A DNA stretch of 64,000 nt, taken from Thermoplasmata archaeon. GTDB lineage: Archaea > Thermoplasmatota > Thermoplasmata > Lutacidiplasmatales > UBA184. The translations under genes were made by a program, and so were the position numbers. The notes beneath the pieces were generated by a model. That model was not told the origin of the DNA, ran no database searches, and saw only the letters and a program-made list of their open reading frames with translations. Location: the NCBI GenBank assembly GCA_035623855.1, contig DASPSQ010000005.1, positions 2,093 through 66,092 on the forward strand, written 5' to 3'. Shown one piece after another: positions 20,381 through 45,544 of this stretch; position 1 is the stretch's first letter, and every line of letters starts with the position of its first letter.

Positions 20381-20445
20381 GGTGCTCCCTCCGCGGGCCG
20401 AAGGGGGGCACCGGTATAAGAGGGACGGGCCACGGTCGAGCGTAA

Positions 20446-21947: not shown

Positions 21948-23532
21948 ATTGGGCGGTGATCGTCGTCGATGCGGAGCCCGTGCCGGCCTCGGCGCAGTAC
22001 TGGTTGACGGAAAACGAGAGGACCGCCGCGCGCGCGGCCCCCGTGTTCGTATAGAGGAGGTGAACGGTCGCGGAATGATTGCCCGTCGCGTTCACGGTGA
22101 CGAAATCGGCACTCGGAAGGGTGACCGAACCTCCGGTCAGAGTGACCACTTTACCGTCCGGTAACGTGAGGCTCCACGTGGAATTCGCCGCCCAATCTTG
22201 AAAGCCCGCGCCGGTGAGATACACGGTCGTATTGTTCGGTCCGGTGACAGAAACGTTCGCGACCGACGCGCTCAGGAGGTAGCCGTGGGCCACGGGGTCT
22301 CCATTGTCGATCGTGACGGCGCTCGTGGCCCCCACCATCGCCCCGGGCGGAAGCGTTGAGGGATACCCGACGTTCGCCGAGAGCCCGACGGACCCTGGGG
22401 GGACCGCGAGAGGAACGACCACGAACCCCGAGACGAGGATCGCGAGCACCAGCCCGCCAATCGCGGCTCGTCGGCCTCCGAGGGGCGTGATGTCGTTGAG
22501 GGGCGGAGGGTGGCGCAATCCGAGGACGAAGACCAGGACGCCGAAGAGTAACCAGCCCGTATAGCCGGTGAAGAGGCCGAGGCCGAACAGAGTGATCACG
22601 ACCGCGTAGCTCACGAACCGTGTGCGGTCCCCGAAGAGGGCGCGGAAGACGTGCCCTCCGTCGAGCTGACCCGCGGGGAGGAGATTGATCGCCGTGACGA
22701 AGATCCCGACCCATCCCGCGAGCGCGAGGGGGCTCAGGCTCACGAGCGTCACCGGGACGAACAGCGACAAAAAGTCCCAGAAGAACGATCCGCCGATGAG
22801 CAGGTTCCCGTAGCTCGTCCCGAGAATCGACGGGCCGCAGTAGTTCGCCGGGAGAACCGGGGCATGGATCGAAAGGTAGAGTCCGACGAGCGCGATCGGG
22901 ATCGACGCGACGAATCCCGCGAGCGGCCCTGACGCCCCGATATCGAAGAGGGCCTTCTTGTCGGGGAACGGCTCGCGGATGCTCACGAACGCTCCGAGCG
23001 TTCCGAAGAGGAACGGGGGCGGGATCGGCATGAAGTACGGGAGCGACGCGTCCAGGTGGCGCCGACGGGCCATCACATAGTGCGCGGTCTCGTGGAGTCC
23101 GAGGATCGTCATGACGGGGAGCGAGAAGTACAGCGCCCCGTTCGCAACGTCCGTGGCCGTGATTGAGATCCCGCCGACATAGGTGAGGTAGATCAGCGAT
23201 CCTGCGAAGATCGTGGTCCCGAACGTGCCCGCGAGGAGAAGGATGTTGATCCAGATTCGCGACCGACCGACCCGGGGTTTTCGGACGACCTCGATGAAGT
23301 CCTCACCGGATTCGCGGCGCAGGAGCGGAATGTACCCGAGCGTCCAGAGCTCCTGCCGCAGCAGGTCGAACTTCTCGGCGAGGGTCGCACGGTCGGCGTG
23401 GATCGCGAGGAGGAGCGACTGGGGTCCGACGCGGGTCTCGTAGACGGGGAAGTGCGCGGCGACCGCCGCTCGGATCCGATCGAGCTCGGATCCGCCGGAG
23501 GACGGAAGGGGGCCGGCCGCCCCGCTGGCCAT
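21940..23532 (-). CDS. Site-2 protease family (peptidase M50) membrane metalloprotease with a C-terminal extracytoplasmic beta-rich domain.
   Basis: HExxH in a TM helix (LGLHETAHYVMARRRH), LDGG motif (NLLPAGQLDGGHV) and multiple TM segments. Confidence 0.75.
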   Translation of the reverse strand: MASGAAGPLPSSGGSELDRIRAAVAAHFPVYETRVGPQSLLLAIHADRATLAEKFDLLRQELWTLGYIPLLRRESGEDFIEVVRKPRVGRSRIWINILLLAGTFGTTIFAGSLIYLTYVGGISITATDVANGALYFSLPVMTILGLHETAHYVMARRRHLDASLPYFMPIPPPFLFGTLGAFVSIREPFPDKKALFDIGASGPLAGFVASIPIALVGLYLSIHAPVLPANYCGPSILGTSYGNLLIGGSFFWDFLSLFVPVTLVSLSPLALAGWVGIFVTAINLLPAGQLDGGHVFRALFGDRTRFVSYAVVITLFGLGLFTGYTGWLLFGVLVFVLGLRHPPPLNDITPLGGRRAAIGGLVLAILVSGFVVVPLAVPPGSVGLSANVGYPSTLPPGAMVGATSAVTIDNGDPVAHGYLLSASVANVSVTGPNNTTVYLTGAGFQDWAANSTWSLTLPDGKVVTLTGGSVTLPSADFVTVNATGNHSATVHLLYTNTGAARAAVLSFSVNQYCAEAGTGSASTTITAQFT

Positions 23533-23535
23533 CCG

Positions 23536-23925
23536 TCACGCTCCCGAGGGGGATTCGCCGGCCGTCTTGCGGAGACGCTTCGCGCGCTCCTTGGCGGAGT
23601 AGCCGGTTGCCTCCTCGAGGAACCGGTTGTATCGGGCGATCGTCTCTCGGGCGACGTCCTCCGGCACCTTGGGGTTCATGGAGACATTCACGCGGAGGTC
23701 CCGGCCGTTGGCCCGGACCGACAGTTGAGAGATCGCACCGTAGGTGGCACGCACCTCCTCGCCCGCCAACTCCACCGTGTCGAAGTGGGTTCGAAGGAGT
23801 CGCGCCAGCGCCTCCGCGCTCAGATTCGAACGGTGGCTCGGGCGCACGGGATAATCCTGCACGGCACCGCGTAAGACCGACGCACCGATTAAATCAGTAT
23901 CGGTCCGGTCGAAACCGCGAGTCAC
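23536..23925 (-). CDS. Hypothetical protein (129 aa), in an operon with the S2P protease.
   Basis: Balanced composition (not Arg-shadow-like), a basic C-terminal tail, and a start overlapping the upstream gene's stop. Confidence 0.4.
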   Translation of the reverse strand: MTRGFDRTDTDLIGASVLRGAVQDYPVRPSHRSNLSAEALARLLRTHFDTVELAGEEVRATYGAISQLSVRANGRDLRVNVSMNPKVPEDVARETIARYNRFLEEATGYSAKERAKRLRKTAGESPSGA

Positions 23926-24170
23926 ACGGTCTCGATTTCGATGAGGACGCGCAACCCTCGGAGCTGGTTCGTGACCTCATCGGAGAGGTCGAGGATCTGA
24001 TCTCGGGTCGGGGGACCCTGCCAATCGTACACGAAGTCGTAGTTGCCCTGCGTCGGGACGAACCCGCACGATCGCAGTCGGTCGGCCACCGACGAGGGTT
24101 TGGCCCCCTCGCTGTCGAACGTCACCCGGAGATACGTTTCCATTGTTCCGACACCACCGCTGGGGGCCAA
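23922..24170 (-). CDS. Hypothetical small protein (73-82 aa); the start is probably the ATG at 24143.
   Basis: Compact sequence METYLRVTFDSEGAKP…YDFVYDWQGPP with non-biased composition. It sits between the PPAT and downstream genes on the same strand. Confidence 0.35.
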   Translation of the reverse strand: MAPSGGVGTMETYLRVTFDSEGAKPSSVADRLRSCGFVPTQGNYDFVYDWQGPPTRDQILDLSDEVTNQLRGLRVLIEIETV

Positions 24171-24233
24171 AGGCCTTGCGCTGGTCGAGTCGAGAAGCGC
24201 GAGCGGCGCACCGTTCGTCGGCGCTCGGGAGCC

Positions 24234-25055
24234 CTACTCCGTGCTGGCGTTCCGTAGGCCCGGTCGCAGGAGTCGCACCATCGCGCTTCGGAGGGTCGCG
24301 GCGGATCCCGCTCGGACCCACCGGGGCCCCAATCCGATCTCGGGGGAAGACTCGGCAATCTCCCAATCCCCTCTTCGGTGCCGGGCGACCCCGATGCCGA
24401 GGTCCGACGCTTCCACGGCCTCTCGCGCGAGCGCTCGTGCGCGGGCGATCGCTCGGGGACCGCCGGTCCTGTCTGGCTCGACCGGGCGGATGCGTAGGAC
24501 GGCGGAGGGGAACACGCGGCGGATCGCCGCGCAGGCGGGGAGAGCGTCCCTCCGATCCGAGACCGCGAGCCCGATCTTCAGGGGAGCGACCCGACGGCCC
24601 TCGCGGTCGATCTCGAGCGAACGGATCCGACGCGAGCTGACCGGTCGGAGGTCGTCGGCGAGGACCACGGGGACCACCTCGAGAGGGATCGAACGGCGAC
24701 CGAGCCGCCGTCGCTCGGCATTCACCGCGCGTCCCCCCGAGCGGGTGTCCGCGGATACTACGAGGACGTCGACCCCCTCCTCGATCGACCGTCCGAACCG
24801 GTTCTCGAGCGGAACCACCCGGACCGTGCGCCTCGGGTAGTGCGCCTTCGCCCAACGAACGACCGCGCGTCGCCGCGTGGCGTACGGTTGCAGTCGGTCC
24901 GCGGCTGGCTTCGGGTGCTCGGCCAGGAACCGGTCGGTCGTGACCCCGATCGAGACTCGCAGTCCGGCATGGAAGGCGCGGTGGAGGAGCGCGGCGTGAC
25001 CGACGTGGAAGTGGTCGAACGTCCCGCCGAGGACCGCGTGGCGGTAGCGGGGCAC
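24234..25055 (-). CDS. Phosphopantetheine adenylyltransferase (archaeal-type cytidylyltransferase fold) with a ~120-aa C-terminal extension.
   Basis: N-terminal AVLGGTFDHFHVGHAALL (HxGH nucleotidyltransferase motif). The C-terminal extension is faintly reminiscent of the DUF84/Ham1-like NTPase fold (tentative). Confidence 0.65.
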   Translation of the reverse strand: MPRYRHAVLGGTFDHFHVGHAALLHRAFHAGLRVSIGVTTDRFLAEHPKPAADRLQPYATRRRAVVRWAKAHYPRRTVRVVPLENRFGRSIEEGVDVLVVSADTRSGGRAVNAERRRLGRRSIPLEVVPVVLADDLRPVSSRRIRSLEIDREGRRVAPLKIGLAVSDRRDALPACAAIRRVFPSAVLRIRPVEPDRTGGPRAIARARALAREAVEASDLGIGVARHRRGDWEIAESSPEIGLGPRWVRAGSAATLRSAMVRLLRPGLRNASTE

Positions 25056-25068
25056 CGAATCGGCCCCC

Positions 25069-25257
25069 CTAGACGAAGAGGCGGCTGACGAAGACGATCA
25101 ACAGAAGCGCGATCGCACCGTAGAGGAGGTAGGTGTACGTCCTCCGGCTCTGGAGCTGCTGCGCCCGCTTCTCTCGGCAGGCTTTGCTGCACGTTTCGGA
25201 GTCGATCGCACAGACCCGGCCGCAGACCTTGCAGTGCCGGTGGTCGTCCTCCACCAC
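25069..25257 (-). CDS. Small zinc-ribbon protein with a C-terminal TM helix (DUF2116-like).
   Basis: CKVCGRVCAIDSETCSKAC is followed by the hydrophobic LLYGAIALLLIVFVSRLFV. It is the last gene of the vWA–GTPase–coiled-coil operon. Confidence 0.4.
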   Translation of the reverse strand: MVEDDHRHCKVCGRVCAIDSETCSKACREKRAQQLQSRRTYTYLLYGAIALLLIVFVSRLFV

Positions 25258-25308
25258 GAGTACACCCGGAACGCCGGTCCCAGAATAGATTTGTGCCGGT
25301 TGGGCGGC

Positions 25309-28266
25309 TCAGCTGCGTCGAGGTCGACGCCGGGCGTCGCGGCTCGCCTCATCCGCCGACCCGTCGGGGGGCGCGATCGGATTCGGAGGATCCTCGCCGA
25401 GCGGGGCATACGCGACCGGGGTCCCGAGGTCGCTCGCGAGGAAGTCGTCCTGGGAGCGGTAGGAGTTCAAGCGCGACGGCCGCTGCGCGGGTCGCGGCCC
25501 CGTCAGGAGGTCGCCGGAGAGCTCTTCGGTTTCCTGGGAGAGCTGCTTCAACAGGTTGAGCCAGATCCGCCCCTGGTGGGCGATCGTCCCCTCGAGGCGG
25601 TCGCGCAGTTCGTTCGTCTGTTCGACGAGGTCGCCCTCGATCCGGCGCATCTCGCGGACCATCTCGCGGCGGATCTCCTTGAATCGAACCTCGGTCTCCT
25701 CAGAGATCGGTGCCCCCTTCTCGAGGTCGCCGACCTTGAGCCAGGTCTTCCGCAGGAGGGGGATCATCCGGTCGCTGAGGACCTGGATCCGTCGGTCGAG
25801 ATCCTCGAGGTCAGAGCGCAACCCGTTCTCGACCCGCTGGAGGTCAGCTTCCCGCTGGGCGAGTCGGGACTCGACGGTCTCGACACGGAGGAGGCCATCG
25901 TCCTGCGCCGCGCGCAGGCGGTTCTCCGCCTCCGCGATCTCCTTCGTCAGCGCGAGCTGCTGATCGGCACGAGCCGAGGCCACCGCCGGCGCGATTCGCT
26001 CCTTGATCGCCGCGTCGAACCGGCTCGGATCGACGGTCTTCGCGAGGGTCTGCTCGACCTCGGTCCGGAGCCGAGCCAGGAGCTCGACGTACTTGTCCCG
26101 CTCCTTCTCCTGGTTTTCGTTGAGCTTCTGCTCCACGAAGGCCTGGAGCCGGACCTGGAGGCCCGCGAGTGCTTCGGTCTGGGCGACCGAGAGCTCCGCG
26201 ACGCGCGCCTCCCGCTCGACCCCCAGGCGCTTTTCGACGCCGTTGACCCGCTCGTCGAGCGCCGCGGACGACCTCGACTGCAGGTCCGTGACCGCGGCCT
26301 TCAGCCGGGTCTCGACGTCCTTCGTCCGGCCGTCCACGAGGATCCCGAGCCTCTGCTCCAGATCCCGAACGTCCTTCGTCCGGCGCTGCTCGATCTCGGC
26401 CGCGTGGGCCTTCAGGAGGTCCCTCACGCGGGCCTCGATCTCCTCCCGGAGAGCGGTCCCTTGCTCCTTCGTCTCCGCCAGCTCGACCTCGAGTTGGGCA
26501 GCGAGCGCGGTCCGGAGCTCGTCCTCCCCGTGAGCGAATCCCGCCTTCGCCTCGTCGATCGACTGGCGGAGCTCTTCGCGGAGTCGCGCCGACCAGGCCT
26601 CCGTGGCGGATTGGACGGCCTGTCGGCTCTTCTCCGTCACCTCGGCGAGGGTCGGGTCGAGCTGGGCGTGGAGGTTCTTCTCGACCTGAGCGGAGACCGT
26701 CCCGGGGTCCAGGACCGGCCGGGACTCGACGGCGGCGATCCGCGCCCCGACGTCCGCCTGGACGCCCAGCATCCCGCGAGCGGACTGCTCGGTAGCTTCC
26801 CGGATCTTCGTGTCGACCGTCGCGAGGAGGCGGGCATCCCGCTGGGCCGCCTCGGTGGGGTCGGCGACCGGTTTCGGGAGCTCGGCGAGTCGCTGATCGA
26901 GGATCCGTCGGATTCGCGCGTCGAGGTCCGCGTCCCCCACCGGCACCGGGGCAACTGCGGCGGCGACCGACGCAGATCCCTCCGGCGGAGGCGACCCCGT
27001 TCGCAGGGAATTGTCATCGCTCACCGAGAGCGGGACCCCTGGAGTGCTGGAGGCCGGCAGGGCGATGTCCACCGGGCGCTGGAGCCACGGTGGATGCTGC
27101 GTCGTTCCGGGCGACGGGGCCGGCCCGGAGATCGGCTCCGGAGGAAGGGGGGCCTCGATGGCTCGGGGGATGGGGATCGACGGCTGAGCCTGAAGGTACT
27201 CGTTCGCCCGCTTGACCGCCTCTCCCGACATCGGGACGGAGCGGCCCTTCGGCTTCACGAGCAAGAGAGCGGCGGTTTCCATCGCGGTCCCGATCCGCCA
27301 CATCTCCTTGCGCCGATCGCGCCCGCCCTGGCCCTCGGCGTCCTGGATCTCCGCCTGCATCCGGGTGCCTTCCACCGCGTCGACGCGACGGGAGACCTCG
27401 GAGATCTTGGGGTCCTGATGATCCCGAACGTACTGGAGGACGAGCGGGAGGCTCTCGCGGGACCGAGTGGGGGTCGGTTTCGTGAGATCCCGCAACATGA
27501 CGGGGGCGGACCCCCAACTGTCGAGTCGCTTCGAGTGCCGCTCGCCCTGCGCTTCGCCTTTCGGCACGCGCATAACGGCGAGCGCGAGCGGAATCTGCTC
27601 GGTGAACTCGTGCGGGTTCACCTTCGCCTCGGGCAGGAAATACGGGAAGACGAGGAACGCACTGAGCGCGATCAGCGAGGTCGGGAGGAGCCGCACCATG
27701 TCGAGGACCACCTGGCTCGCCGACTCCCACTGCTCGGCGGCGACGACGACGACGGGTTCGGTGGTCCCGCGGTGGAACAGGAACCCCTCTCCGATGGCCT
27801 GGTACACCGACGCGTCCGGTTCGGCGGTGACCCGCGGGGGGCCCGATTTCCCTCCCATGCTCGCATGGGCCCGAAGGACCGCGGGACCGAACTCCCCGCT
27901 CTCGACCAGGTCCGCGGTCGAGAAGACGAGCGTTTTCATTCCGAGCCGAGGTCGATCCTCGGTGGAGAGGAACATCCGTCCGATGCATGTGTACCGGCCA
28001 TTGGCCGCCGGGTAAAGGAACAGATTCGGGTAGTACGAGAGCGGCTGCGACGGATCCGGATCCCAATAGTCGTGGGTGTCGGCGACGTTAACCGTCAGGT
28101 TGCCGATCATCCGGATCGCCTCCAGAGTCTCACGGCGCCCCGGGAATTCCTCGGGGATCGTCGTGTACCCCGGGCTTTCGGCCTCGTTGTCGACCTGGCG
28201 GCACCAGACGACGGAGATCGGGGCGAGGCCCGCGAGTGGCGCGCTCGCGGGTACCGCCGTCGACAT
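25309..28266 (-). CDS. Giant coiled-coil protein (985 aa). It has an N-terminal ~330-aa globular domain, a Pro-rich linker and a ~550-aa Ala/Glu/Arg/Leu-rich coiled-coil region.
   Basis: There are long heptad-like stretches (e.g. EELRQSIDEAKAGF…LEVELAETKEQGTALREEIEARVRDLLKAHAAEIEQRR…) and the linker PSIPIPRAIEAPLPPEPISGPAPSPGTT. The ATG is 4 nt after the upstream GTPase stop. Confidence 0.6.
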   Translation of the reverse strand: MSTAVPASAPLAGLAPISVVWCRQVDNEAESPGYTTIPEEFPGRRETLEAIRMIGNLTVNVADTHDYWDPDPSQPLSYYPNLFLYPAANGRYTCIGRMFLSTEDRPRLGMKTLVFSTADLVESGEFGPAVLRAHASMGGKSGPPRVTAEPDASVYQAIGEGFLFHRGTTEPVVVVAAEQWESASQVVLDMVRLLPTSLIALSAFLVFPYFLPEAKVNPHEFTEQIPLALAVMRVPKGEAQGERHSKRLDSWGSAPVMLRDLTKPTPTRSRESLPLVLQYVRDHQDPKISEVSRRVDAVEGTRMQAEIQDAEGQGGRDRRKEMWRIGTAMETAALLLVKPKGRSVPMSGEAVKRANEYLQAQPSIPIPRAIEAPLPPEPISGPAPSPGTTQHPPWLQRPVDIALPASSTPGVPLSVSDDNSLRTGSPPPEGSASVAAAVAPVPVGDADLDARIRRILDQRLAELPKPVADPTEAAQRDARLLATVDTKIREATEQSARGMLGVQADVGARIAAVESRPVLDPGTVSAQVEKNLHAQLDPTLAEVTEKSRQAVQSATEAWSARLREELRQSIDEAKAGFAHGEDELRTALAAQLEVELAETKEQGTALREEIEARVRDLLKAHAAEIEQRRTKDVRDLEQRLGILVDGRTKDVETRLKAAVTDLQSRSSAALDERVNGVEKRLGVEREARVAELSVAQTEALAGLQVRLQAFVEQKLNENQEKERDKYVELLARLRTEVEQTLAKTVDPSRFDAAIKERIAPAVASARADQQLALTKEIAEAENRLRAAQDDGLLRVETVESRLAQREADLQRVENGLRSDLEDLDRRIQVLSDRMIPLLRKTWLKVGDLEKGAPISEETEVRFKEIRREMVREMRRIEGDLVEQTNELRDRLEGTIAHQGRIWLNLLKQLSQETEELSGDLLTGPRPAQRPSRLNSYRSQDDFLASDLGTPVAYAPLGEDPPNPIAPPDGSADEASRDARRRPRRS

Positions 28267-28269
28267 CGC

Positions 28270-29436
28270 TTACTCCCCCTTGGTCGCGCGTCGTTCGAGA
28301 ACCCGCTCGCACGCGCGTGCGAGCGGAAGGGTGGTGTTGACCATGACCGGGACTCCCAGCGTCTGCGTCCCCACGTTCGGCGCTTCCTCTCCGGTCTCTC
28401 CGATGAACAGGGGGTGCCCTTCCCCGGTCGAAACGGCGCTCGACACGAGGAAGACGTCCTCCTTCATCGAGATTCCCCGGCCTTCCTGCGCGACCAGGAT
28501 CGTCCCCATCCCCGCTCCGTCCCGGCGCAGGAGAAAATCGACGGGGTCGAACGCGCTCCGGTAGGCGCGCTCGCGGATCGATTGCTCGATCTCGGAGTAG
28601 AACTCCTTCAGTTTGTCGGCCTTCGATACCGCGATCACGAGCGGGAGGTTCCGGGACTTCGCGTATCGGAAGACGCCGCGGGCGAGGTTCACCTGCTGGG
28701 CCTGATCCCGCAGGGATGGAAGCCCGGGGGAAAGGAGGAGGATCAGCGCGTCCGCGCCCGTGACGAACCGGCCGAGGAGGGTCAGTCCGCGCCGCCAGAG
28801 ATCCCGTCGGTCGGGGCGCCAGGAATCGAAGTGTGGAATCACCCGGCACGTCTTCTCGAGGACCTCCTCGTCCGGGGTCGACAGCCAGAGCCGATCGTAT
28901 GTGAAGTAGTCGGCGATGATCCCACCGGCCTCGTCGATCGTTTGCAGTTCCATGGGGCGGGAGCCGATCTCCCCGTTCGCCGCCCCATAGCGGAACCGCA
29001 TCTTCATCTCGACGAACTGATTGAATTTCGTCGGGAGAGGGTACTTCGTCAGGATCCCCTGGTCCTCGCGCCCAGCGCTCAGCTCGACCCAGAGCTTGCG
29101 GCGGTCCTCCATCGGGCGGTTGACGTAGTACCGGGTCGTTGTCTCGAGGCTTCCCTCGGGATCGGTCGGATCGGTGGTTTCGTACGTCGTCTCCTCGAGC
29201 GCGACGTCGTTCTCGAGGTCCCCGTAGAGCGGAAGGGTTCCGTTGTCCGCGCGCGACGGGATGTACAGGATCGGGAGATTCAATCCGAAATGTCCGGAAA
29301 GGAACCGAAAGTAAGTGGTCTTTCCCGACGCAGGGATGCCCACGACGGCCACGCGCGCGGAATCGCCGGACGGCTTCGCCTCACGCTTCGTCCCGGCTGC
29401 CCGACGTGTGCGGGTCGTGACCTTGACCTCGGGCAT
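28270..29436 (-). CDS. P-loop NTPase, putative GTPase.
   Basis: Walker A VAVVGIPASGKTTYF is present, and the candidate G4-like motif VSKADKL suggests guanine specificity. I recognise no close family. It is coupled to the vWA gene upstream and the coiled-coil gene downstream. Confidence 0.55.
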   Translation of the reverse strand: MPEVKVTTRTRRAAGTKREAKPSGDSARVAVVGIPASGKTTYFRFLSGHFGLNLPILYIPSRADNGTLPLYGDLENDVALEETTYETTDPTDPEGSLETTTRYYVNRPMEDRRKLWVELSAGREDQGILTKYPLPTKFNQFVEMKMRFRYGAANGEIGSRPMELQTIDEAGGIIADYFTYDRLWLSTPDEEVLEKTCRVIPHFDSWRPDRRDLWRRGLTLLGRFVTGADALILLLSPGLPSLRDQAQQVNLARGVFRYAKSRNLPLVIAVSKADKLKEFYSEIEQSIRERAYRSAFDPVDFLLRRDGAGMGTILVAQEGRGISMKEDVFLVSSAVSTGEGHPLFIGETGEEAPNVGTQTLGVPVMVNTTLPLARACERVLERRATKGE

Positions 29437-29448
29437 TTGGATCGACTC

Positions 29449-30957
29449 CTACCGCATCTCCGCTAGGCAGATCTCGATGAAATCCAGCGCGCCCTCGACC
29501 ACGGGGCCACCGGAGGCGAGCTCGAGGCGCGCATCCTGCAGGAGCCCGAAGATCTCCTCGACCGCGGCCTCGTGCTTGAGGGCCGCATCCTGAAGGTCGC
29601 CCTCCCCCGCGAGCCGCGTGAGCTGGTACGTCCCGCGAAGTTCCATGAGCTTGTCGAACAGGTCCATCAGGCGTTCCCGCGTCGTGGCATCACTTTGGCC
29701 CAACCCATGCTCGGTATTATCGATGAACTTAACGAGTGTCTCGGTCTCCTTGTCGTTCTGCATCCGGGCCTGAAGCATGGCAAGGCGCCTCACGATCGGC
29801 CCCTGGGACGGCTCGGGTAGCTTTTCTGCCTCCGCCCAGGCCTGAAGGAGAGCTCGCGCGGCCTCCACGACCGCGCGGCGCGCGAATTGTACGCGCGCTT
29901 CCCAGTAGAGACGGGTGACGGGTGGGAGCACGGCCTGCGACCTCGAGAGGAGTTCCAACGCGTGGTCGTACTCCCCCCGGACGTAGGCCTCGACGACCTC
30001 GCCGAGGGGGCCATAACGCTCTCGCAGGTAGGCCGGGGCACTCGCCGGCGTCCCTGACACCACGTCGACCTCGATTTCGGGAGCCTCCCGGTAGGCCGCC
30101 TCCGCCGCGGGACGCGGGGCGATGACCGCCGCACCCCGAATCCGCGAGACCGTCGCGTGTTGCTGCGGCTCTTTCAGCGCTCGGGCCGCGCTCGCGGCAC
30201 GGCGCGCGAGCTCCTCCGGGTGGAGCTCCTCGATCGGCTGATCCCCCTCGTACCCGACGTCCACGAACGCGTGGACCATCTGGGCGAAGAGCGCGGAACC
30301 AGTCGTGACCTCTTGGAAGCTGAACGGGGCCGGGACTCCGAGCAGCTGGGCGCGATCGGTGAGCTGCGCGAGGAATTGGTTCATGTGCCCGGCGTCGACG
30401 CCCTTGTCCCGTTCGTCGCCGTTTCCAATCCCGATCAGGCGGAAGGTCAGACGAGAGTTCGCGGGCAGTATGTACGGGATGAGGTCGATCTTACCGTTGG
30501 GCAGCGGAGCGTGGGAGGAGTTGCGGACGTCGAAGCGCTGGGATGCGTTGTCCCACCCGTCCGTGACGAGGACGAGGTTTCCCCGAACTCCTTCCACCCC
30601 CATCCGGAGAAGGTCGGCGCCCACGGCGATCGCGTCCCAGATCGCGGACCGGCCGCTCGGCGTGAGGAGGCTGATGAGGTTCTCGATGTACGGGAGGTTC
30701 TCCTTGTGGATTTCTCCCAGCGGGACCGGGACGCGGACCGTCTCGGTGAATGTGACGAGGCCGAACGGGTTGCCGGAGGTCGAGGCATCCTGAAGGATTC
30801 GGAACACCGCAGTTCGGGCGACTTCGATCTTCTGACGCTCCGGGGAGCCCGGTTGCGGCTCCGGCAGCGGAGCGAGCATGCTCTTCGAGAGATCGAGGAT
30901 CAGGACGTTCCGCTCCCGTTCGGGACCTGTCGTGGGTGAAGTAGAATCTTGAAGCAT
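29449..30957 (-). CDS. von Willebrand factor type A (vWA) domain protein with a C-terminal all-helical domain.
   Basis: MIDAS motif DLSKS (VLILDLSKSM), conserved LVTDGWDN and a Thr/Ser MIDAS partner. About 250 aa of helical region (TPR-like) follow. Confidence 0.65.
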   Translation of the reverse strand: MLQDSTSPTTGPERERNVLILDLSKSMLAPLPEPQPGSPERQKIEVARTAVFRILQDASTSGNPFGLVTFTETVRVPVPLGEIHKENLPYIENLISLLTPSGRSAIWDAIAVGADLLRMGVEGVRGNLVLVTDGWDNASQRFDVRNSSHAPLPNGKIDLIPYILPANSRLTFRLIGIGNGDERDKGVDAGHMNQFLAQLTDRAQLLGVPAPFSFQEVTTGSALFAQMVHAFVDVGYEGDQPIEELHPEELARRAASAARALKEPQQHATVSRIRGAAVIAPRPAAEAAYREAPEIEVDVVSGTPASAPAYLRERYGPLGEVVEAYVRGEYDHALELLSRSQAVLPPVTRLYWEARVQFARRAVVEAARALLQAWAEAEKLPEPSQGPIVRRLAMLQARMQNDKETETLVKFIDNTEHGLGQSDATTRERLMDLFDKLMELRGTYQLTRLAGEGDLQDAALKHEAAVEEIFGLLQDARLELASGGPVVEGALDFIEICLAEMR

Positions 30958-31248
30958 GCAGCGCGCCCCGCGGTCCGTCTAGACGTTTCCCGGGAACACG
31001 ACCCGGGAGCCTCCCCGAGCGGCTCCGCCCTGTCGCACATGAATATTCACCTCGGATAGGGTATTTGTGGCTTCCGCCGGATTCCTTGGCGCGCCGGCAG
31101 TCTGATGGGGCGTCGCGGCTCGTACCCGGACCCGTCCGGCGCGATCGCCGGGTCCTTCCCGAGCCCCCCGTCGCGAGGAAGAGGCTGCACTGGGGAACGC
31201 GGTCGCTCCCGAACCGAGGTCAAGCCGTCCTCGCCGAGCGCGAAGCCA

Positions 31249-31258
31249 AGGTTATAAC
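31249..31258 (+). promoter_or_regulatory. Palindromic TATA-like element ggttataacc 25-34 nt upstream of the S17e ATG.
   Basis: Perfect 10-bp palindrome containing TTATAA, in an otherwise GC-rich intergenic region. The spacing fits a leaderless archaeal promoter. Confidence 0.4.
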
Positions 31259-31282
31259 CGCGGCCCGGGTCCGCGCGCCCGC

Positions 31283-31507
31283 ATGGGCAGCATCCGCCAA
31301 ACGTACATCAAGCGGGTCGCGATCGAACTGATCCGCCACTACCCGAACGACTTTGGAGCGGATTTCGCCCACAACAAGCAGAAGGTGCTCGAGCTGACCG
31401 ACCTCGGCGTGGTCGTGGACGGGAAGATTCAGGTCGTCCACAAGAAGCTCGCCAACCGGATCGCCGGCTACGCGACCCGGTACATGAAGCGAAAGCGAGG
31501 GACCTAG
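31283..31507 (+). CDS. rps17e: 30S ribosomal protein S17e.
   Basis: MGSIRQTYIKRVAIELIRHYPNDFGADFAHNKQKVLELTD matches the S17e N-terminal consensus (MG.IR..IKR.A.EL…F..DF..NK). Confidence 0.85.
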   Translation: MGSIRQTYIKRVAIELIRHYPNDFGADFAHNKQKVLELTDLGVVVDGKIQVVHKKLANRIAGYATRYMKRKRGT

Positions 31508-31541
31508 ACTCTCCCTCGACAGGTCGCGCGACGTCCGGGAA

Positions 31542-32207
31542 TCACTCGAACACCCCGAAGCCATCCTGCAGGTGCACGATCTCGACGGGCGTGGTGGGCC
31601 GGCCCACGACGAACCCGCGTGAGTTCGCAACGAGGCACGCCCCGACGATCGGGACCCCGAAGTTGGCGGTCGAGCGGTGGACCGGGACGCCGAGACGCCG
31701 CTCGACAACCCCGACCTCGCGATCCGTTGCCTTCGGGTGGACGACGACCCCACGGTTGGTTGCGACCCCGGCCATCCCGACCGTCCCGAGCCCCGCGACC
31801 GTCCCTCGCTCCGCGGGGACGCCGAGCGCCCGGGAGATCTGCGCGACCGCCTCGGAGGAGAACTCCGGGTGCACGATCGCCCCGGCGTCATTCGCAAGGA
31901 TGTTGTTCCCCATCGCATTCTGGCGGTGTCGGACGACCGTCACCGGCCCGACGGACTCGAGCGTCCGGCGTTCGTCGGCGTCGACCTCCTCCCCAACCAC
32001 GACGCCCTTCGAGTTGGCGGCGACCATCGCACCGACGACCTCGCAGTCGAAGACGTTCGTCCGGACCACTCGGATCCGCAGGAGCCGCTCCACGTCCCGT
32101 TCGAGGGCCTGCGGCAGGGTCCACGGAGCGAGGCCGACCGTCTCGCCGACCCGCAGATAGACTCCAAGGTAGGGGCTACCGCCGAAAAGCCCCCGACCGA
32201 CCGGCAC
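31542..32207 (-). CDS. eif6: Translation initiation factor 6 (aIF6/eIF6).
   Basis: Five-fold pseudo-repeat with recurring G(S/T)..VGxxANSxGxVV motifs (ANSKGVVVG, ANDAGAIVHP, ATNRGVVVHP, ANSRGFVVG). The conserved position is right after L31e. Confidence 0.8.
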   Translation of the reverse strand: MPVGRGLFGGSPYLGVYLRVGETVGLAPWTLPQALERDVERLLRIRVVRTNVFDCEVVGAMVAANSKGVVVGEEVDADERRTLESVGPVTVVRHRQNAMGNNILANDAGAIVHPEFSSEAVAQISRALGVPAERGTVAGLGTVGMAGVATNRGVVVHPKATDREVGVVERRLGVPVHRSTANFGVPIVGACLVANSRGFVVGRPTTPVEIVHLQDGFGVFE

Positions 32208-32230
32208 GCCTGGCGTCTCCCGGGGGCCCG

Positions 32231-32527
32231 CTACTCGCTCTCGAGGATATCGACCTCGATCAGGCCGTCCTCGAAGCGGATCGCCTTGACCCGGACCTGC
32301 CGGGGGATGTGTTGGATTCCCCGTTCCCAGATGAGCTCGTTGAGCCGCGGGTCGATCCAGATGTCTTCCGGCTTCCCTTTCATGTGTCGCCCAACGAACC
32401 GGCGCACGGTCTCAAGGGCATGGCCGGCCCGCCGGCGGCGGGACGGCTGGTGCTGGCTCGGCCGCAGCGGGATCACGTACTCCCGTTCGAGTTCTTCAGC
32501 GCGGCGTGACGGGGTCTTCGCGGGCAT
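32231..32527 (-). CDS. rpl31e: 50S ribosomal protein L31e.
   Basis: EREYVIPLR…RRRAGHALETVRRFVGRHMK…IWIDPRLNELIWERGIQHIPRQVRVKA matches L31e. Confidence 0.85.
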   Translation of the reverse strand: MPAKTPSRRAEELEREYVIPLRPSQHQPSRRRRAGHALETVRRFVGRHMKGKPEDIWIDPRLNELIWERGIQHIPRQVRVKAIRFEDGLIEVDILESE

Positions 32528-32542
32528 CGATCTTCCCGTCCC

Positions 32543-32701
32543 TCACTTGTGGAGGTGACCTCGCTTCCACGTATGGCGCTTCGGATGGCGGGTGACCCGA
32601 CGACTGGTGCGTTGCATGACCCAGGCCGGGACCCGGCGATTCCCCTTCACGACCCGGAGCAGGCGAGTCTTCCGCGCGAGGCTCTTCCTTCGATTCGCCA
32701 T
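32543..32701 (-). CDS. rpl39e: 50S ribosomal protein L39e (52 aa). It is absent from the ORF track because it is shorter than 60 aa.
   Basis: Manual translation of the minus strand gives MANRRKSLARKTRLLRVVKGNRRVPAWVMQRTSRRVTRHPKRHTWKRGHLHK*, which matches the L39e consensus (KxLAKKxRLxxxxKQNRxVPxWV…RRxWRR). It sits between the PDCD5-like gene and L31e, as in other archaea. Confidence 0.8.
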   Translation of the reverse strand: MANRRKSLARKTRLLRVVKGNRRVPAWVMQRTSRRVTRHPKRHTWKRGHLHK

Positions 32702-32713
32702 GGGATCCTCGGT

Positions 32714-33073
32714 TCAACGGCGGGTGATCGTGATCTCCCGACGATCGGGCGCGATCCTTTCAAGGAGCGAGCGGAGCGTCGCGTCGTCGATCTGCCGCTG
32801 AATCCGTCCGCTCGCGGCGAGCGCGATCAGCTGCTGCTCCACGGAGGCTGCGACATCCGGCTTTGCGAGACGGATCCGGCCGAGCCGTTCGCGCGCCTCC
32901 GGAGTGAGGATCCGGCGGAGGATCTCGGAGCGTTCCGCGTCCCGCCGTGCCATCTCCGACTCTTGGGCGGCGTACGCTTGCGCCTGCGCTGCCTCCGACT
33001 GTTGCATCTCCTGGAGCTGCCGAACGCGTCGACGACGGAGCTCCGTGAGTTCGGGATCCTCTCCGTACGCCAT
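32714..33073 (-). CDS. Double-stranded-DNA-binding protein of the PDCD5/TFAR19 family (the archaeal protein conserved next to S19e).
   Basis: MAYGEDPELTELRRRRVRQLQEMQ…ILRRILTPEARERLGRIRLAKPDVAASVEQQLIALAASGRI. The ATG at 33073 was chosen because the upstream part of the track ORF overlaps S19e. Confidence 0.65.
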   Translation of the reverse strand: MAYGEDPELTELRRRRVRQLQEMQQSEAAQAQAYAAQESEMARRDAERSEILRRILTPEARERLGRIRLAKPDVAASVEQQLIALAASGRIQRQIDDATLRSLLERIAPDRREITITRR

Positions 33074-33111
33074 TCGACCGTTCCTCGCTCTTGGCTTAAC
33101 CCGTAGACACT

Positions 33112-33567
33112 CTAGAGATACTTGGCGAGTTCGGGCCGGTTCTCCGCGAGTCGCTTGAGAGCGTCCCGGGAGACCGTCATGAGGAGCTTCTCTCCGGCGG
33201 GGCTCAGTCGTCGTCCTTGCGTCTTGTACGGTTGGACCAGTCCGGCCTTCTCCAACTGGTGGATGATCTCGCGAAGGACCGCACGGGAACCGGTCCGGGC
33301 ATGATACGGCGCGCTCCCGCGGTCCCGTTTGCCACCGTAGTCCGCGCTGAGCCGAGAGACCCCGACGTGACCGCGGAGGTAGATCTTCCGCAGCACCGAA
33401 GCGCTCCGCAGGTACCACCAGTCCGTCTGCACCGGGGCGCGTTGCTTGTGGACCCCCGTTTTGACGAACGTTGCCCACGGAGGGGGTGCAACCGCTTGCC
33501 GACTCCTCAGTTCTGTAGCAAGCTGGGGGAGCAGAATCCCCGGTGGAACGTCGTTTGGGTGGCTCAT
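33112..33567 (-). CDS. rps19e: 30S ribosomal protein S19e.
   Basis: PPWATFVKTGVHKQRAPVQTDWWYLRSASVLRKIYLRGHVGVSRL…YGGKRDRGSAPYHARTGSRAVLREIIHQLEKAGLV is an S19e hallmark. The ATG at 33567 gives 151 aa. Confidence 0.85.
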   Translation of the reverse strand: MSHPNDVPPGILLPQLATELRSRQAVAPPPWATFVKTGVHKQRAPVQTDWWYLRSASVLRKIYLRGHVGVSRLSADYGGKRDRGSAPYHARTGSRAVLREIIHQLEKAGLVQPYKTQGRRLSPAGEKLLMTVSRDALKRLAENRPELAKYL

Positions 33568-33593
33568 GGAGCGGCGCGGCCACCCGGTGAGCC

Positions 33594-33602
33594 TATTTAA
33601 AA
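33594..33602 (-). promoter_or_regulatory. TATA box (TTTTAAATA on the minus strand) 27-35 nt upstream of the S19e ATG; promoter of the S19e–PDCD5–L39e–L31e–aIF6 operon.
   Basis: gcctatttaaaaccgg is the only AT-rich element in the 268-bp divergent intergenic region. The spacing fits a leaderless mRNA. Confidence 0.45.
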
Positions 33603-33835
33603 CCGGACCCTGGCGTTCGGCGAGCCGGGCGAGGAAGGACTGGCCGGGTCCCGGATCCTCGGAATCCCGGAGTGCGGCTCGAGGCCCGACGTCGGGAATC
33701 CAGGTACACCGTGCGTCGGGGTCGGCAGGGGCGGCCGAGCCCTTGCGTCTCTCCTCCAGGTGGCGACCCGGGGCCATCGCCTTAACTACCGGCCGTTCGT
33801 ATCGATTTGGCAACCCGCGTCCGGGCCGGTCCACG

Positions 33836-34444
33836 ATGACGGTTGCCGCTCTCATACTCGCTGCCGGCGAATCCAGCCGGTTCGAGGGCTATCCCAAAGC
33901 CCTCTTGACCGCCGGGCGTCGGTCCGCCGTCCGCCGACTCGCCGAGATCGCGATCGCTCAGCAATTCGACCCGATCGCGGTCGTTGTCGGGGCCCACAAG
34001 GGTCCGATTACCCACGAGCTTCGCGATCTCCCCGTGGAGATCGTGGATGCGGAGCAGTGGTACGAGGGCCGGACCGCGTCGATTCAGGCCGGGATCTCTG
34101 CCCTTCCTGACGACCGGGACATTCTCCTCTGGCCGATCGACCACCCGTTCGTCTCTCCCCGGACGGTTGAGACGCTCACGGCGCTCCTTTCCACCGATAT
34201 GATCGCCGTCTGGTACATCCCGACGTACGAGGGTAATGGCGGTCACCCGGTCCTCTGGCGGTCGGTGATCCGCCCGGACGTCCTCGACCTTCGGCCCGAC
34301 GCACCGGTTCGCTCGCTCCTTCCGGAATTTGGCCCCCAGGTCCGACGCGTACCCGTCGAGGATCCGGGAGTCGTCGCGAACGTCGACACCCCCGACGCCT
34401 ACCGTGACGCGTACGAGACCTGGCTCGCCCGAGGGGAGGAGTGA
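33836..34444 (+). CDS. MobA-like nucleotidyltransferase (MocA-type molybdenum cofactor cytidylyltransferase).
   Basis: AALILAAGESSRFEGYPKALL matches the MobA/MocA N-terminal NTP-transferase motif. It is the first gene of the molybdo-hydroxylase operon. Confidence 0.65.
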   Translation: MTVAALILAAGESSRFEGYPKALLTAGRRSAVRRLAEIAIAQQFDPIAVVVGAHKGPITHELRDLPVEIVDAEQWYEGRTASIQAGISALPDDRDILLWPIDHPFVSPRTVETLTALLSTDMIAVWYIPTYEGNGGHPVLWRSVIRPDVLDLRPDAPVRSLLPEFGPQVRRVPVEDPGVVANVDTPDAYRDAYETWLARGEE

Positions 34445-45531: not shown

Positions 45532-45544
45532 CGCCGCCTCGACG

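What the first reader, a model, noticed from the sequence alone, without database searches (positions are those of the whole stretch)
25069..30957. vWA – P-loop GTPase – giant coiled-coil – Zn-ribbon membrane protein operon: candidate NTP-dependent ternary system
Four co-directional, tightly coupled genes (gaps of 12, 4 and ~50 nt). The first is a vWA protein with an intact MIDAS (DLSKS…TDGWDN) and a helical C-terminal domain. The second is a P-loop NTPase with Walker A GIPASGKTT and a G4-like SKAD, unlike any family I recognise. The third is a 985-aa protein with a ~330-aa globular head, a Pro-rich linker and ~550 aa of coiled coil. The fourth is a small zinc-ribbon single-TM protein. The combination of a vWA domain, an NTPase and a long coiled-coil partner is the grammar of the NTP-dependent ternary vWA conflict/signalling systems described by comparative genomics (Kaur, Burroughs, Iyer, Aravind 2020). 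I am not aware that this specific GTPase + coiled-coil giant version has been characterised in archaea. It could equally be a cytoskeleton- or membrane-remodelling module.
Basis: partly seen in the sequence, partly recalled or inferred. Interest (0 to 1): 0.8.

Follow-up and report, generated by a model that had tools for sequence, protein, structure and literature searches.

The report
Archaeal GTPase, longin-headed rod, vWA operon
One group of uncultured soil archaea carries a three-gene module that it conserves as strictly as its ribosomal proteins: a new kind of GTPase switch, a long rod protein whose head folds like eukaryotic GTPase regulators, and a metal-dependent adaptor protein. It looks like core cell machinery, not an anti-virus defence system.

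Summary
The four genes are real and lie at the stated coordinates, on the minus strand: vWA 29449-30957, GTPase 28270-29436, 985-aa rod protein 25309-28266, DUF2116 Zn-ribbon tail-anchored protein 25069-25257.

The conflict-system reading is not supported.
- There is no MoxR ATPase, no effector domain and no architectural variation.
- The vWA-GTPase-rod trio is single-copy and syntenic in all 80 fetched species genomes of Lutacidiplasmatales-like Thermoplasmata. A sister clade keeps the trio with different upstream neighbours.
- The GTPase evolves as slowly as ribosomal proteins (median 84.5% identity; dN 0.04-0.08).

New findings:
- The GTPase has invariant G1-G5 motifs and a Ras/MglA-like fold, from a low-confidence model. 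An exhaustive search of 1.84 billion representatives found no relatives outside these clades.
- The rod protein's head (pLDDT 84) is a longin domain, then an alpha/beta domain, then a helical domain. It resembles C9orf72, DENN, TagF and Rag/roadblock GTPase platforms.
- The vWA protein carries a TPR-like C-terminal domain.
- The DUF2116 gene is coupled more tightly to the downstream PPAT gene than to the trio.

Best reading: a lineage-core GTPase switch with a longin/DENN-like regulator fused to a rod, plus a vWA-TPR adaptor. It probably organises a membrane or cytoskeletal structure, but that function is inferred.

The parts
31041..31075 (-). Conserved archaeal promoter-like element (BRE/TATA-like GGAAGCCACAAATACCC at 31059-31075, second AT box at 31041-31051), about 105 nt upstream of the vWA start codon.
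   Evidence: Sequence read. The AAATA core is invariant in 19 aligned upstream regions, whereas the rest of the leader is variable. The box lies 98-132 nt upstream of vWA in 63 of the 73 loci with enough upstream sequence (none in the four sister-clade loci), including loci where S17e is more than 700 nt away. Promoter function is inferred.
29449..30957 (-). vWA-TPR protein (502 aa): N-terminal vWA domain with intact MIDAS (D22, S24, S26, S104, D133), C-terminal TPR-like helical domain (from about residue 300), no TM segment.
   Evidence: Pfam VWA_2 2e-8 and VWA 1.3e-5. All 16 orthologues hit VWA_2, and 4 of 16 hit TPR_16 (best 1.4e-5). MIDAS residues are invariant. The nearest solved vWA domains are of the BatA/BatB type (E 3e-4). 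Maximum hydropathy is 1.24.
28270..29436 (-). Orphan TRAFAC-type GTPase (388 aa): variable Lys/Arg/Pro/Ala-rich N-terminal tail (1 to about 28), G1 GIPASGKTT 33-41, an insertion of about 90 aa in the switch-I position (about 50-138), G3 DEAGG 168-172, G4 SKAD 271-274, G5 SA 333-334.
27247..28266 (-). Head of the rod protein (aa 1-340): longin-type domain (about 18-136), alpha/beta domain (about 150-280), helical hairpin (about 285-337). Invariant motifs: WCRQVDNEAESP, DTxDYWDPDP, GRMFLSTEDRPRLG.
26857..27246 (-). Pro/Ala/Ser-rich flexible linker (aa 341-470).
   Evidence: Composition 19% Pro, 13% Ala, 10% Ser. It is variable and gap-rich in the alignment.
25822..26856 (-). Long alpha-helical rod (aa 471-815), E/A/R/L-rich. 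It is a clade-specific expansion, absent from the 555-580-aa sister-clade orthologues.
   Evidence: Composition. Hydrophobic periodicity 3.6 with z=5.2. The pairwise alignment with P0145 skips residues 334-815. There are no DNA tandem repeats. A weak ZorA coiled-coil-tail match in PADLOC (E 8e-4) is read as a compositional match.
25312..25821 (-). Conserved C-terminal module of the rod protein (aa 816-915, motifs IPLLRKTWLKV and HQGRIWLNLL) plus an acidic/Pro-rich tail ending in a basic patch (916-985).
   Evidence: 34% identity, E 1e-18, to the C-terminus of the short sister-clade protein. The motifs are visible. The proposed function (partner or membrane binding) is inferred.
25069..25257 (-). 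DUF2116 Zn-ribbon, tail-anchored membrane protein (62 aa). It is adjacent to the trio but is probably the first gene of the next unit (DUF2116-PPAT...).
   Evidence: Pfam DUF2116 2.8e-12. TM segment at the C-terminus. The Znr-to-PPAT gap is 6-22 nt in all 53 loci that hold both genes. In contrast, the rod-to-Znr junction carries insertions in 7 loci and is broken in 8. In the sister clade the gap to the rod gene is only 3-4 nt.
25282..25295 (-). AT-rich promoter-like box (CACAAATCTATTCT), 25-38 nt upstream of the DUF2116 start codon, in the 51-nt spacer between the rod gene's stop codon and DUF2116.
   Evidence: Sequence read. A conserved box (C/T)AACG(C/A)TAA(G/A)C occupies the same position (median 37 nt upstream) in the other loci. 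Promoter function is inferred.

Best explanation
The unit is a three-gene operon, vWA-TPR, GTPase and rod protein, with its own conserved promoter. It is a vertically inherited, single-copy core module of one Thermoplasmata lineage (Lutacidiplasmatales-like soil archaea and a sister clade).

Proposed mechanism:
1. The 388-aa protein is a guanine-nucleotide switch of the Ras/TRAFAC fold. It lacks a catalytic Gln after G3 (DEAGG-I), so hydrolysis probably needs a partner.
2. The head of the rod protein is a longin domain followed by alpha/beta and helical domains. This is the platform architecture that eukaryotic DENN, C9orf72-SMCR8, FLCN and Mon1-Ccz1 use as GEFs or GAPs, and it is related to the prokaryotic MglB roadblock. 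The head would bind the GTPase and control its cycle. The invariant loop STEDRPRLG is a candidate arginine finger.
3. Through its Pro-rich linker, long amphipathic helical rod and conserved C-terminal module, the same protein couples the switch to an extended scaffold or tether.
4. The vWA-TPR protein uses its intact MIDAS site to clamp an acidic peptide of a partner. Candidates are the invariant acidic insert LEETTYETTDPTDPEGSLETTT of the GTPase and the acidic tail of the rod protein. Its TPR part would recruit further proteins.
5. The polybasic N-tail of the GTPase would place the assembly on the membrane, or on nucleic acid.

Shown here: gene anatomy, motifs, folds, synteny, selection and phyletic restriction. 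Inferred: the GTPase-head interaction, the direction of regulation (GEF or GAP), the MIDAS ligand, and the cellular process (membrane or cytoskeletal organisation).
For: Core status:
- 132 species genomes encode the GTPase, and the order vWA-GTPase-rod holds in all 80 fetched loci that extend far enough.
- The sister clade keeps the trio with different upstream genes.
- Median identity is 84.5% for the GTPase, against 84% for S17e, 85% for L31e and 69% for eIF6.
- dN is 0.036-0.079 for the GTPase, against 0.051-0.085 for L31e. The vWA gene is similar to eIF6. The rod gene has dN/dS of 0.19-0.37.
- The neighbours are housekeeping genes.

GTPase:
- G1-G5 motifs are invariant.
- The model has Ras-like topology.

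Regulator head:
- The model is confident.
- Longin and roadblock domains are established GTPase platforms (PMC3521125, read).

Other support:
- The vWA protein has an invariant MIDAS and TPR hits.
- The promoter box is conserved.
- The head and the C-terminal module are conserved while the rod length varies.
Against: - The GTPase model is poor (pLDDT 52.9), and no GTPase family matches by sequence beyond the P-loop and a weak G4 region.
- No interaction was tested. No complex prediction was available.
- None of the three proteins has a membrane segment. The only membrane protein nearby, DUF2116, is tied more tightly to PPAT.
- The rod periodicity of 3.6 is not a classic coiled coil.
- The cellular process is pure inference. 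The organisms are uncultured.
Confidence: 0.5

Rival explanations
1. An NTP-dependent conflict or defence system of the kind described by Kaur et al. 2020. It would be either a vWA ternary system in which a GTPase replaces MoxR, or a divergent DO-GTPase-GAP1 system. In that reading the rod protein is the sensor or effector scaffold.
For: - The grammar fits: a vWA protein, a TRAFAC GTPase with Glu in Walker B (D168-E169), and a downstream gene with a three-part globular region. This is the layout described for DO-GTPase/GAP1.
- Some GAP1-N2 systems include vWA and coiled-coil proteins.
- Pfam DO-GTPase2 appears at E=0.15.
- The paper reports a few such systems in archaea, including a Thermoplasmatales species.
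Against: - The DO-GTPase2 match covers only 14 P-loop residues. No GAP1, GASH, FNIII, EAD or effector domain is present.
- PADLOC gives nothing but a coiled-coil composition match.
- The architecture is uniform. The trio is single-copy and strictly syntenic in 80 species genomes, among ribosomal and other housekeeping genes.
- Conservation is at ribosomal-protein level. This is the opposite of the variability, mobility and patchiness that define conflict systems.
Confidence: 0.07
2. A lineage-specific ribosome-biogenesis or translation-associated GTPase system. The basic N-tail would bind rRNA, and the vWA MIDAS would act like that of Rea1/midasin on assembly factors.
For: - In the main clade the trio sits directly next to S17e, eIF6, L31e and S19e.
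- It is conserved like ribosomal proteins.
- The G4 region resembles EngA weakly.
Against: - The ribosomal neighbours are not kept in the sister clade, which has CDC48 or other genes upstream. In several main-clade loci S17e is more than 700 nt away.
- The operon has its own promoter and is divergent from S17e.
- The family is confined to one narrow clade, whereas ribosome-assembly GTPases are broadly conserved.
- A longin/DENN-like head on a 450-aa rod has no precedent in ribosome assembly.
Confidence: 0.12
3. A nucleoid or chromosome-organising machine. A long rod protein with a globular head would work with an NTPase whose histone-H1-like Lys/Pro/Ala tail binds DNA.
For: - The GTPase N-tail is K/P/A-rich and reaches about 60 aa in some orthologues.
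- The helical rod is long.
- The module has single-copy core status.
Against: - The head is not an SMC/Rad50-type ABC ATPase. It is a longin-type platform.
- No DNA-binding domain is detected.
- The rod shrinks to about 100 aa in the sister clade, which is hard to reconcile with an SMC-like mechanism.
Confidence: 0.1
4. A chaperone-like assembly system analogous to MoxR-vWA (BatA/BatB, CoxD/CoxE), in which a GTPase replaces the AAA+ partner. The vWA-TPR protein would deliver a client for maturation or cofactor insertion.
For: - The vWA domain is closest to BatA/BatB-type vWA domains (E 3e-4).
- The vWA+TPR architecture resembles BatB (the BatB architecture is from my own knowledge).
- vWA and NTPase pairs are typically co-chaperones.
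Against: - No client enzyme gene is linked consistently.
- The GTPase is of the TRAFAC/Ras type, not a G3E metallochaperone.
- The conserved longin-type head and the rod are unexplained by this model.
Confidence: 0.08

Closest known systems
MglA-MglB and other small-GTPase plus roadblock/longin platform pairs (Rag-Ragulator, SRbeta-SRX)
   Different: There is no sequence membership in MglA or MglB. The GTPase is 388 aa with an insertion of about 90 aa in switch I and a polybasic N-tail. The platform is fused to two further domains and a rod of about 450 aa. A vWA-TPR partner is added. MglAB operons are described as mobile and widespread (PMC3521125), whereas this module is confined to one clade and fixed in place.
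Eukaryotic tripartite DENN-type modules (DENND1/10, C9orf72-SMCR8, FLCN-FNIP, NPRL2/3) and bacterial TagF
FtsZl1-vWA-GTPase operons (Makarova & Koonin 2010, PMC2875224)
   Same: The operon grammar is the same: a vWA protein with intact MIDAS, a diverged P-loop GTPase annotated as hypothetical, and a protein built as globular nucleotide-related head, extended coiled coil and helical C-terminal domain. Those operons were predicted to act in membrane remodelling.
   Different: The head here is a longin-type platform, not an FtsZ/tubulin GTPase domain, and it has no GGGTG(S/T)G loop (sequence). There are no OmpA-like or kinase partners. FtsZl1 neighbourhoods are patchy and variable, and were later reinterpreted as conflict systems.
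DO-GTPase-GAP1 GTPase-centric conflict systems (Kaur et al. 2020, PMC7159879)
   Same: A TRAFAC GTPase with Glu in Walker B is followed by a gene with three globular domains. Some versions have vWA and coiled-coil partners and a membrane-proximal Zn-ribbon or TM element.
   Different: HMMs do not recognise either protein beyond the P-loop. There is no GASH or FNIII component, no effectors, no paralogous second GTPase and no mobility. Conservation is extreme.
MoxR-vWA pairs of the BatA/BatB type
   Same: The vWA domain is nearest to BatA/BatB vWA domains by profile search. It combines a vWA domain with TPR-like repeats.
   Different: No MoxR AAA+ ATPase is present. The linked NTPase is a GTPase. 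The vWA protein has no TM segment or signal sequence.

Membership tests
MoxR-vWA-centric ternary conflict systems (Kaur et al. 2020) | Core MoxR-type AAA+ ATPase paired with the vWA protein | tested here: not met
MoxR-vWA-centric ternary conflict systems (Kaur et al. 2020) | vWA protein with a metal-binding MIDAS site | tested here: met
   VWA_2 2e-8. D22, S24, S26, S104 and D133 are invariant in 16 orthologues.
MoxR-vWA-centric ternary conflict systems (Kaur et al. 2020) | Third component is VMAP, iSTAND, FtsH or beta-propeller | tested here: not met
   The rod protein hits no Pfam or NCBIfam family. Its head folds as a longin plus alpha/beta plus helical module.
MoxR-vWA-centric ternary conflict systems (Kaur et al. 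2020) | Variable effector domains, high architectural variability, and patchy or mobile distribution (criteria quoted) | tested here: not met
   The vWA+TPR architecture is uniform. Synteny is strict in 80 species genomes. dN is at ribosomal-protein level. PADLOC finds nothing.
DO-GTPase-GAP1 GTPase-centric systems (Kaur et al. 2020) | GTPase belongs to the DO-GTPase family (Pfam DO-GTPase1/2) | tested here: not met
   DO-GTPase2 scores E=0.15 over 14 P-loop residues only, against a cut-off of 27 bits. Only 1 of 21 orthologues reaches E=0.094. Remote homology was not excluded, because no profile-profile search was possible.
DO-GTPase-GAP1 GTPase-centric systems (Kaur et al. 2020) | Conserved glutamate in the Walker B motif | tested here: met
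   D168-E169-A-G171 is invariant. This is a motif-level feature and is not specific by itself.
DO-GTPase-GAP1 GTPase-centric systems (Kaur et al. 2020) | Downstream GAP1 protein with GAP1-N, GAP1-M and GAP1-C domains | tested here: inconclusive
   The gene order fits, and the head has three sub-domains. However, no Pfam family at all is hit by 7 diverse heads at E up to 10.
DO-GTPase-GAP1 GTPase-centric systems (Kaur et al. 2020) | GASH or FNIII-repeat component, variable effectors, and mobile neighbourhoods | tested here: not met
   None of these is present among the neighbours. The genomic position is fixed.
Small GTPase plus longin/roadblock platform modules (MglA/MglB-like, functional class) | Ras-superfamily/TRAFAC G-domain with G1-G5 motifs | tested here: met
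Small GTPase plus longin/roadblock platform modules (MglA/MglB-like, functional class) | Partner protein contains a longin or roadblock fold | tested here: met
Small GTPase plus longin/roadblock platform modules (MglA/MglB-like, functional class) | Physical interaction and GAP or GEF activity of the platform on the GTPase | not testable with these tools
   No complex prediction or biochemistry was available. The only support is adjacency (3-nt gap) and co-inheritance.
Small GTPase plus longin/roadblock platform modules (MglA/MglB-like, functional class) | Sequence membership in the MglA or MglB/Roadblock families | tested here: not met
   There are no Pfam or NCBIfam hits. The exhaustive phmmer search finds only clade-internal relatives.
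DENN module (longin + DENN + d-DENN) | Tripartite longin, alpha/beta and helical architecture that superposes on solved DENN modules | tested here: inconclusive
FtsZl1-vWA-GTPase operons (Makarova & Koonin 2010) | FtsZ/tubulin-like GTPase domain at the N-terminus of the coiled-coil protein | tested here: not met
Housekeeping GTPases (HflX, EngB/YihA, EngA, Era, Obg, GPN) | Match to the family model above its cut-off | tested here: not met
   The best NCBIfam hit is EngA at 15.1 bits against a cut-off of 306.7. The Pfam ATP_bind_1 (GPN) hit covers the P-loop only. There are no relatives outside the clade.

The most novel reading that the evidence does not exclude
A non-Asgard archaeal lineage has an endogenous, essential-like membrane-organising or tethering machine. 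It is built from a dedicated Ras-superfamily GTPase, a true longin-DENN-type GEF/GAP module fused to a golgin-like rod, and a vWA-TPR adaptor. This would be a prokaryotic counterpart, or a remote homologue, of the DENN/C9orf72-type regulator plus small GTPase plus long tether logic that is thought to be a eukaryotic (or Asgard-derived) invention.
Probability: 0.2. Interest if true: 0.8.

Novelty: new variant of a known kind. Interest (0 to 1): 0.55.

Why it matters
- It defines two orphan protein families, a GTPase and a longin-headed rod protein, that are as conserved as ribosomal proteins in a widespread but uncultured order of soil archaea. They have never been described (no literature was found).
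- If the head is a real GTPase regulator of the longin/DENN type, it shows that this platform architecture was elaborated outside eukaryotes and Asgard archaea. It would then have been coupled there to a rod or tether and to a vWA adaptor.
- It gives a concrete, small, three-protein system for testing how prokaryotic GTPase switches organise cell structures in Thermoplasmatota.
- It is a cautionary example. The 'vWA + NTPase + coiled coil' grammar does not by itself indicate a defence system.

Tried and rejected
Defence annotation: PADLOC gave only a ZorA coiled-coil-tail match for the rod (E 8e-4, compositional) and a P-loop match. Rejected.

Known GTPase family: Pfam, NCBIfam, and PDB sequence searches with single sequences, a profile and a G3-G5 fragment gave nothing beyond the P-loop and G4.

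Wider relatives:
- An exhaustive phmmer search of 1.84e9 representatives with the GTPase found only clade-internal hits.
- Single-sequence and profile searches with the head returned the same 32 proteins.

Sequence link of the head to longin, DENN or GAP1: none.

afdb50 fold search: the library was unavailable.

TagF-DENN literature check: the matches were only author names. DUF2116 literature: nothing relevant.

Structured RNA or repeats:
- No Rfam hit in 20000-36000, and no meaningful tandem repeats.
- The conserved element upstream of vWA proved to be a short promoter-like box followed by a variable leader. The 5'UTR-riboswitch idea was dropped.

Ribosome-linked function: weakened because the ribosomal neighbours are not kept in the sister clade.

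DUF2116 as the fourth subunit: downgraded, because it is always 6-22 nt from PPAT while its junction with the rod gene is variable.

dN/dS: dS is near saturation (0.8-1.2), so only dN comparisons are used.
Full report
**1. What is there**

The region holds four minus-strand ORFs: a vWA protein (29449-30957, 502 aa), a P-loop NTPase (28270-29436, 388 aa), a 985-aa protein (25309-28266) and a 62-aa protein (25069-25257). The gaps between them are 12, 3 and 51 nt. Their codon-position GC pattern (GC3 0.83-0.87) is that of real genes in this 65-70% GC genome.

The tightly packed co-directional array continues downstream. A PPAT-like cytidylyltransferase, an 82-aa ORF, DUF5611 and an M50 site-2 protease follow. 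Upstream, divergently, lie S17e and then eIF6, L31e, a PDCD5-like gene and S19e. The host is an uncultured Thermoplasmata archaeon of the Lutacidiplasmatales type. The identical protein is annotated 'Thermoplasmata archaeon', the related loci include Candidatus Lutacidiplasma, and the order has about 69% GC and genomes of about 2.1 Mb (PMC9287336).

**2. The four proteins**

*vWA protein.*
- Pfam VWA_2 scores 2e-8.
- The MIDAS residues D22, S24, S26, S104 and D133 are invariant in 16 orthologues.
- The C-terminal 200 aa are helical, and four orthologues hit TPR families (best 1.4e-5).
- The nearest solved vWA domains are of the BatA/BatB type.
- There is no TM segment.

*NTPase.*
- G1 GIPASGKTT, G3 DEAGG, G4 SKAD and G5 SA are invariant.
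- The AF2 model is poor (pLDDT 52.9, pTM 0.60). It nevertheless shows the Ras-like strand and helix order, with G4 after beta5 and G5 after beta6. It also shows an insertion of about 90 aa between alpha1 and beta2.
- No curated family is matched.
- The residue after G3 is Gly-Ile rather than Gln, so catalysis in trans is likely. This step is inference.
- The N-terminus is a variable Lys/Arg/Pro/Ala-rich tail of 25-60 aa.

*Rod protein.*
- The head (aa 1-340) models confidently (pLDDT 84.1, pTM 0.87). It consists of a beta-alpha-beta-beta-beta-alpha-alpha domain, then a beta/alpha domain, then a helical hairpin.
- Alignments reach 167-183 residues for the whole-module proteins DENND10, DENND1A and TagF.
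- Foldseek independently ranks C9orf72 first (E 7e-4, 411 columns, but TM 0.23) and TagF second.
- No sequence method sees any of this.
- After the head come a 19%-Pro linker (341-470), an E/A/R/L-rich helical rod (from about 471) and an acidic/Pro tail.
- The rod's hydrophobic periodicity is 3.6 (z=5.2), not 3.5. It is therefore an amphipathic, hendecad-like helix rather than a textbook heptad coiled coil.

*Small protein.* Pfam DUF2116 ('probable treble clef') scores 2.8e-12, and the protein has a C-terminal TM helix, so it is tail-anchored.

**3. Distribution and selection**

A scan of one genome per GTDB species found 132 genomes encoding the GTPase, and the best 80 loci were fetched.
- Wherever the contig extends, the order is S19e-PDCD5-L31e-eIF6-S17e(-)-vWA-GTPase-rod.
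- In most loci, DUF2116-PPAT-orf82-DUF5611-S2P-MTase-Mut7C follows.
- Median identities to the window are: GTPase 84.5%, S17e 84%, L31e 85%, S19e 75.5%, vWA 73%, eIF6 69%, DUF2116 65%, rod 56%.
- Pairwise dN against five genomes is 0.036-0.079 for the GTPase, 0.051-0.085 for L31e, 0.10-0.19 for vWA and 0.15-0.32 for the rod. dS is about 0.8-1.2 and near saturation, so only dN is compared.

A sister clade of 'Candidatus Thermoplasmatota archaeon' MAGs also has the module.
- It keeps vWA (466-477 aa), the GTPase (396-425 aa, 60% identical) and a short rod protein (555-580 aa). DUF2116, PPAT, a 73-aa ORF and M50 follow.
- The upstream genes differ there: CDC48 in one case, unrelated genes in another.
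- The short and long rod proteins share the head (40% identity, E 8e-73) and a C-terminal module (aa 816-915, 34%, E 1e-18). Residues 334-815 are a clade-specific expansion.

Outside these clades nothing was found.
- An exhaustive phmmer search of 1.84 billion 50%-identity representatives returned 13 hits, all at least 56% identical.
- Single-sequence and profile searches with the head returned the same 32 proteins.

**4. Boundaries of the unit**

A BRE/TATA-like box, GGAAGCCACAAATACCC (31059-31075), lies about 105 nt upstream of the vWA start. Its AAATA core is invariant in 19 aligned upstream regions. A matching box lies 98-132 nt upstream of vWA in most main-clade loci, and it travels with vWA even where S17e is distant. 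The leader after it is variable, so this is a promoter rather than a structured RNA. Rfam finds nothing.

At the other end, the rod-to-DUF2116 junction is the weak link.
- It carries a conserved promoter-like box about 37 nt upstream of the DUF2116 start.
- It has acquired a TrmB-like regulator gene in five loci and a methyltransferase gene in one.
- It is broken in eight loci, where the whole DUF2116-PPAT-...-S2P block is absent.
- By contrast, DUF2116 and PPAT are 6-22 nt apart in all 53 loci that hold both.

I therefore treat vWA-GTPase-rod as the unit and DUF2116 as a frequent neighbour. Only the 3-4-nt spacing in the sister clade suggests that DUF2116 is a membrane anchor for the rod.

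**5. Interpretation**

As read, the conflict systems of Kaur et al. 2020 come in two types. One is MoxR plus vWA plus VMAP/iSTAND/FtsH/propeller. The other is DO-GTPase plus GAP1 plus GASH or FNIII. Both have variable effectors, mobility and patchy distribution.

Here MoxR and every third-component or effector family are absent. The DO-GTPase2 hit is a 14-residue P-loop match. The locus is fixed, single-copy and under ribosomal-protein-level constraint. Only two generic features fit: the Glu in Walker B and the GTPase-then-three-domain-protein order. Remote descent from such a system cannot be excluded, but the module does not behave as one.

The evidence best supports a housekeeping GTPase switch whose regulator is built into the head of a rod or tether protein, with a vWA-TPR adaptor. 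This follows the logic of MglA-MglB and of eukaryotic longin/DENN GEFs and GAPs (PMC3521125). Its operon grammar also echoes the FtsZl1-vWA-GTPase operons that were predicted to remodel membranes (PMC2875224).

The cellular process (membrane, cytoskeleton, nucleoid or ribosome) is not determined. I favour membrane or cytoskeletal organisation at about 0.4-0.5.

**6. Limits**

- The GTPase model is of low confidence.
- The head similarities are modest and purely structural.
- No interaction could be predicted or tested.
- Presence in every genome of the order could not be checked.
- No literature on this module was found.

Noticed in passing
window 31041-31075 (minus strand): There is a strongly conserved BRE/TATA-like box, GGAAGCCACAAATACCC, plus a second AT box, about 105 nt upstream of the vWA start. 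It is present in nearly all main-clade loci and travels with vWA rather than with S17e. It implies a GC-rich 5' leader of about 70-90 nt with variable sequence.
   Followed up: yes
window 25069-25257 and 24234-25055; loci L001-L080: The DUF2116 Zn-ribbon tail-anchored gene is always 6-22 nt upstream of the PPAT-like gene (53 of 53 loci), in a block that ends with an M50 site-2 protease. A cytosolic Zn-binding domain plus one TM helix resembles bacterial anti-sigma substrates of S2P proteases. DUF2116 may therefore be a membrane-tethered regulator cleaved by the linked M50 protease. This is speculation.
   Followed up: partly
L071:12481-13695, L072:5311-6510, L075:12504-13649, L079:12296-13516, L080:7837-8961; L043:12204-12974: In one subclade, a gene of about 380-400 aa is inserted between the rod gene and DUF2116. 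By eye it looks like a TrmB-like winged-helix regulator (no domain search was run). In L043 a SAM-methyltransferase-like gene sits at the same junction.
   Followed up: partly
window 25822-26856 (rod, aa 471-815): The helical rod has a hydrophobic periodicity of 3.6 residues (z=5.2) rather than 3.5. Its length is highly variable between genomes (ORF-call lengths 501-1707 aa, several inflated by over-extended starts or cut by frameshifts) and collapses to about 100 aa in the sister clade (555-580-aa proteins).
   Followed up: partly
window 29350-29436 (GTPase aa 1-28); L071, L081, L084: The N-terminal tail of the GTPase is a variable, histone-H1-like Lys/Pro/Ala/Thr-rich segment. It is 25 aa long here and up to about 60 aa in L084. 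It could bind an acidic membrane or nucleic acid.
   Followed up: no
L070:10620-12188 and upstream; L060, L064: In a few MAGs the rod gene is split or truncated. In L070 it is a 501-aa head ORF plus a 522-aa rod ORF. These are probably frameshifts or assembly errors in the repetitive, GC-rich rod region rather than real gene fission.
   Followed up: no
window 54687-59351 (+): There is a 1554-aa protein made almost entirely of TPR repeats (TPR_19 2.6e-55, TPR_16 2.4e-50).
   Followed up: no
window 45849-46955 (-) and 46959-48200 (-): Two adjacent ORFs of 368 and 413 aa, with good coding GC3 but no Pfam family at E up to 1e-5, lie next to a TFIIB (TFB) gene at 44560-45726.
   Followed up: no
window 49853-52066 (+): There is a 737-aa protein with an N-terminal KaiC/RecA-like ATPase domain (PF06745, 3.2e-30) and a long C-terminal part with no family assignment.
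   Followed up: no
window 23922-24170 (-): The 82-aa ORF between PPAT and DUF5611 has no Pfam family. It is nonetheless highly conserved (median 79% identity; dN 0.05-0.13) and is kept in the sister clade as a 73-aa gene.
   Followed up: no
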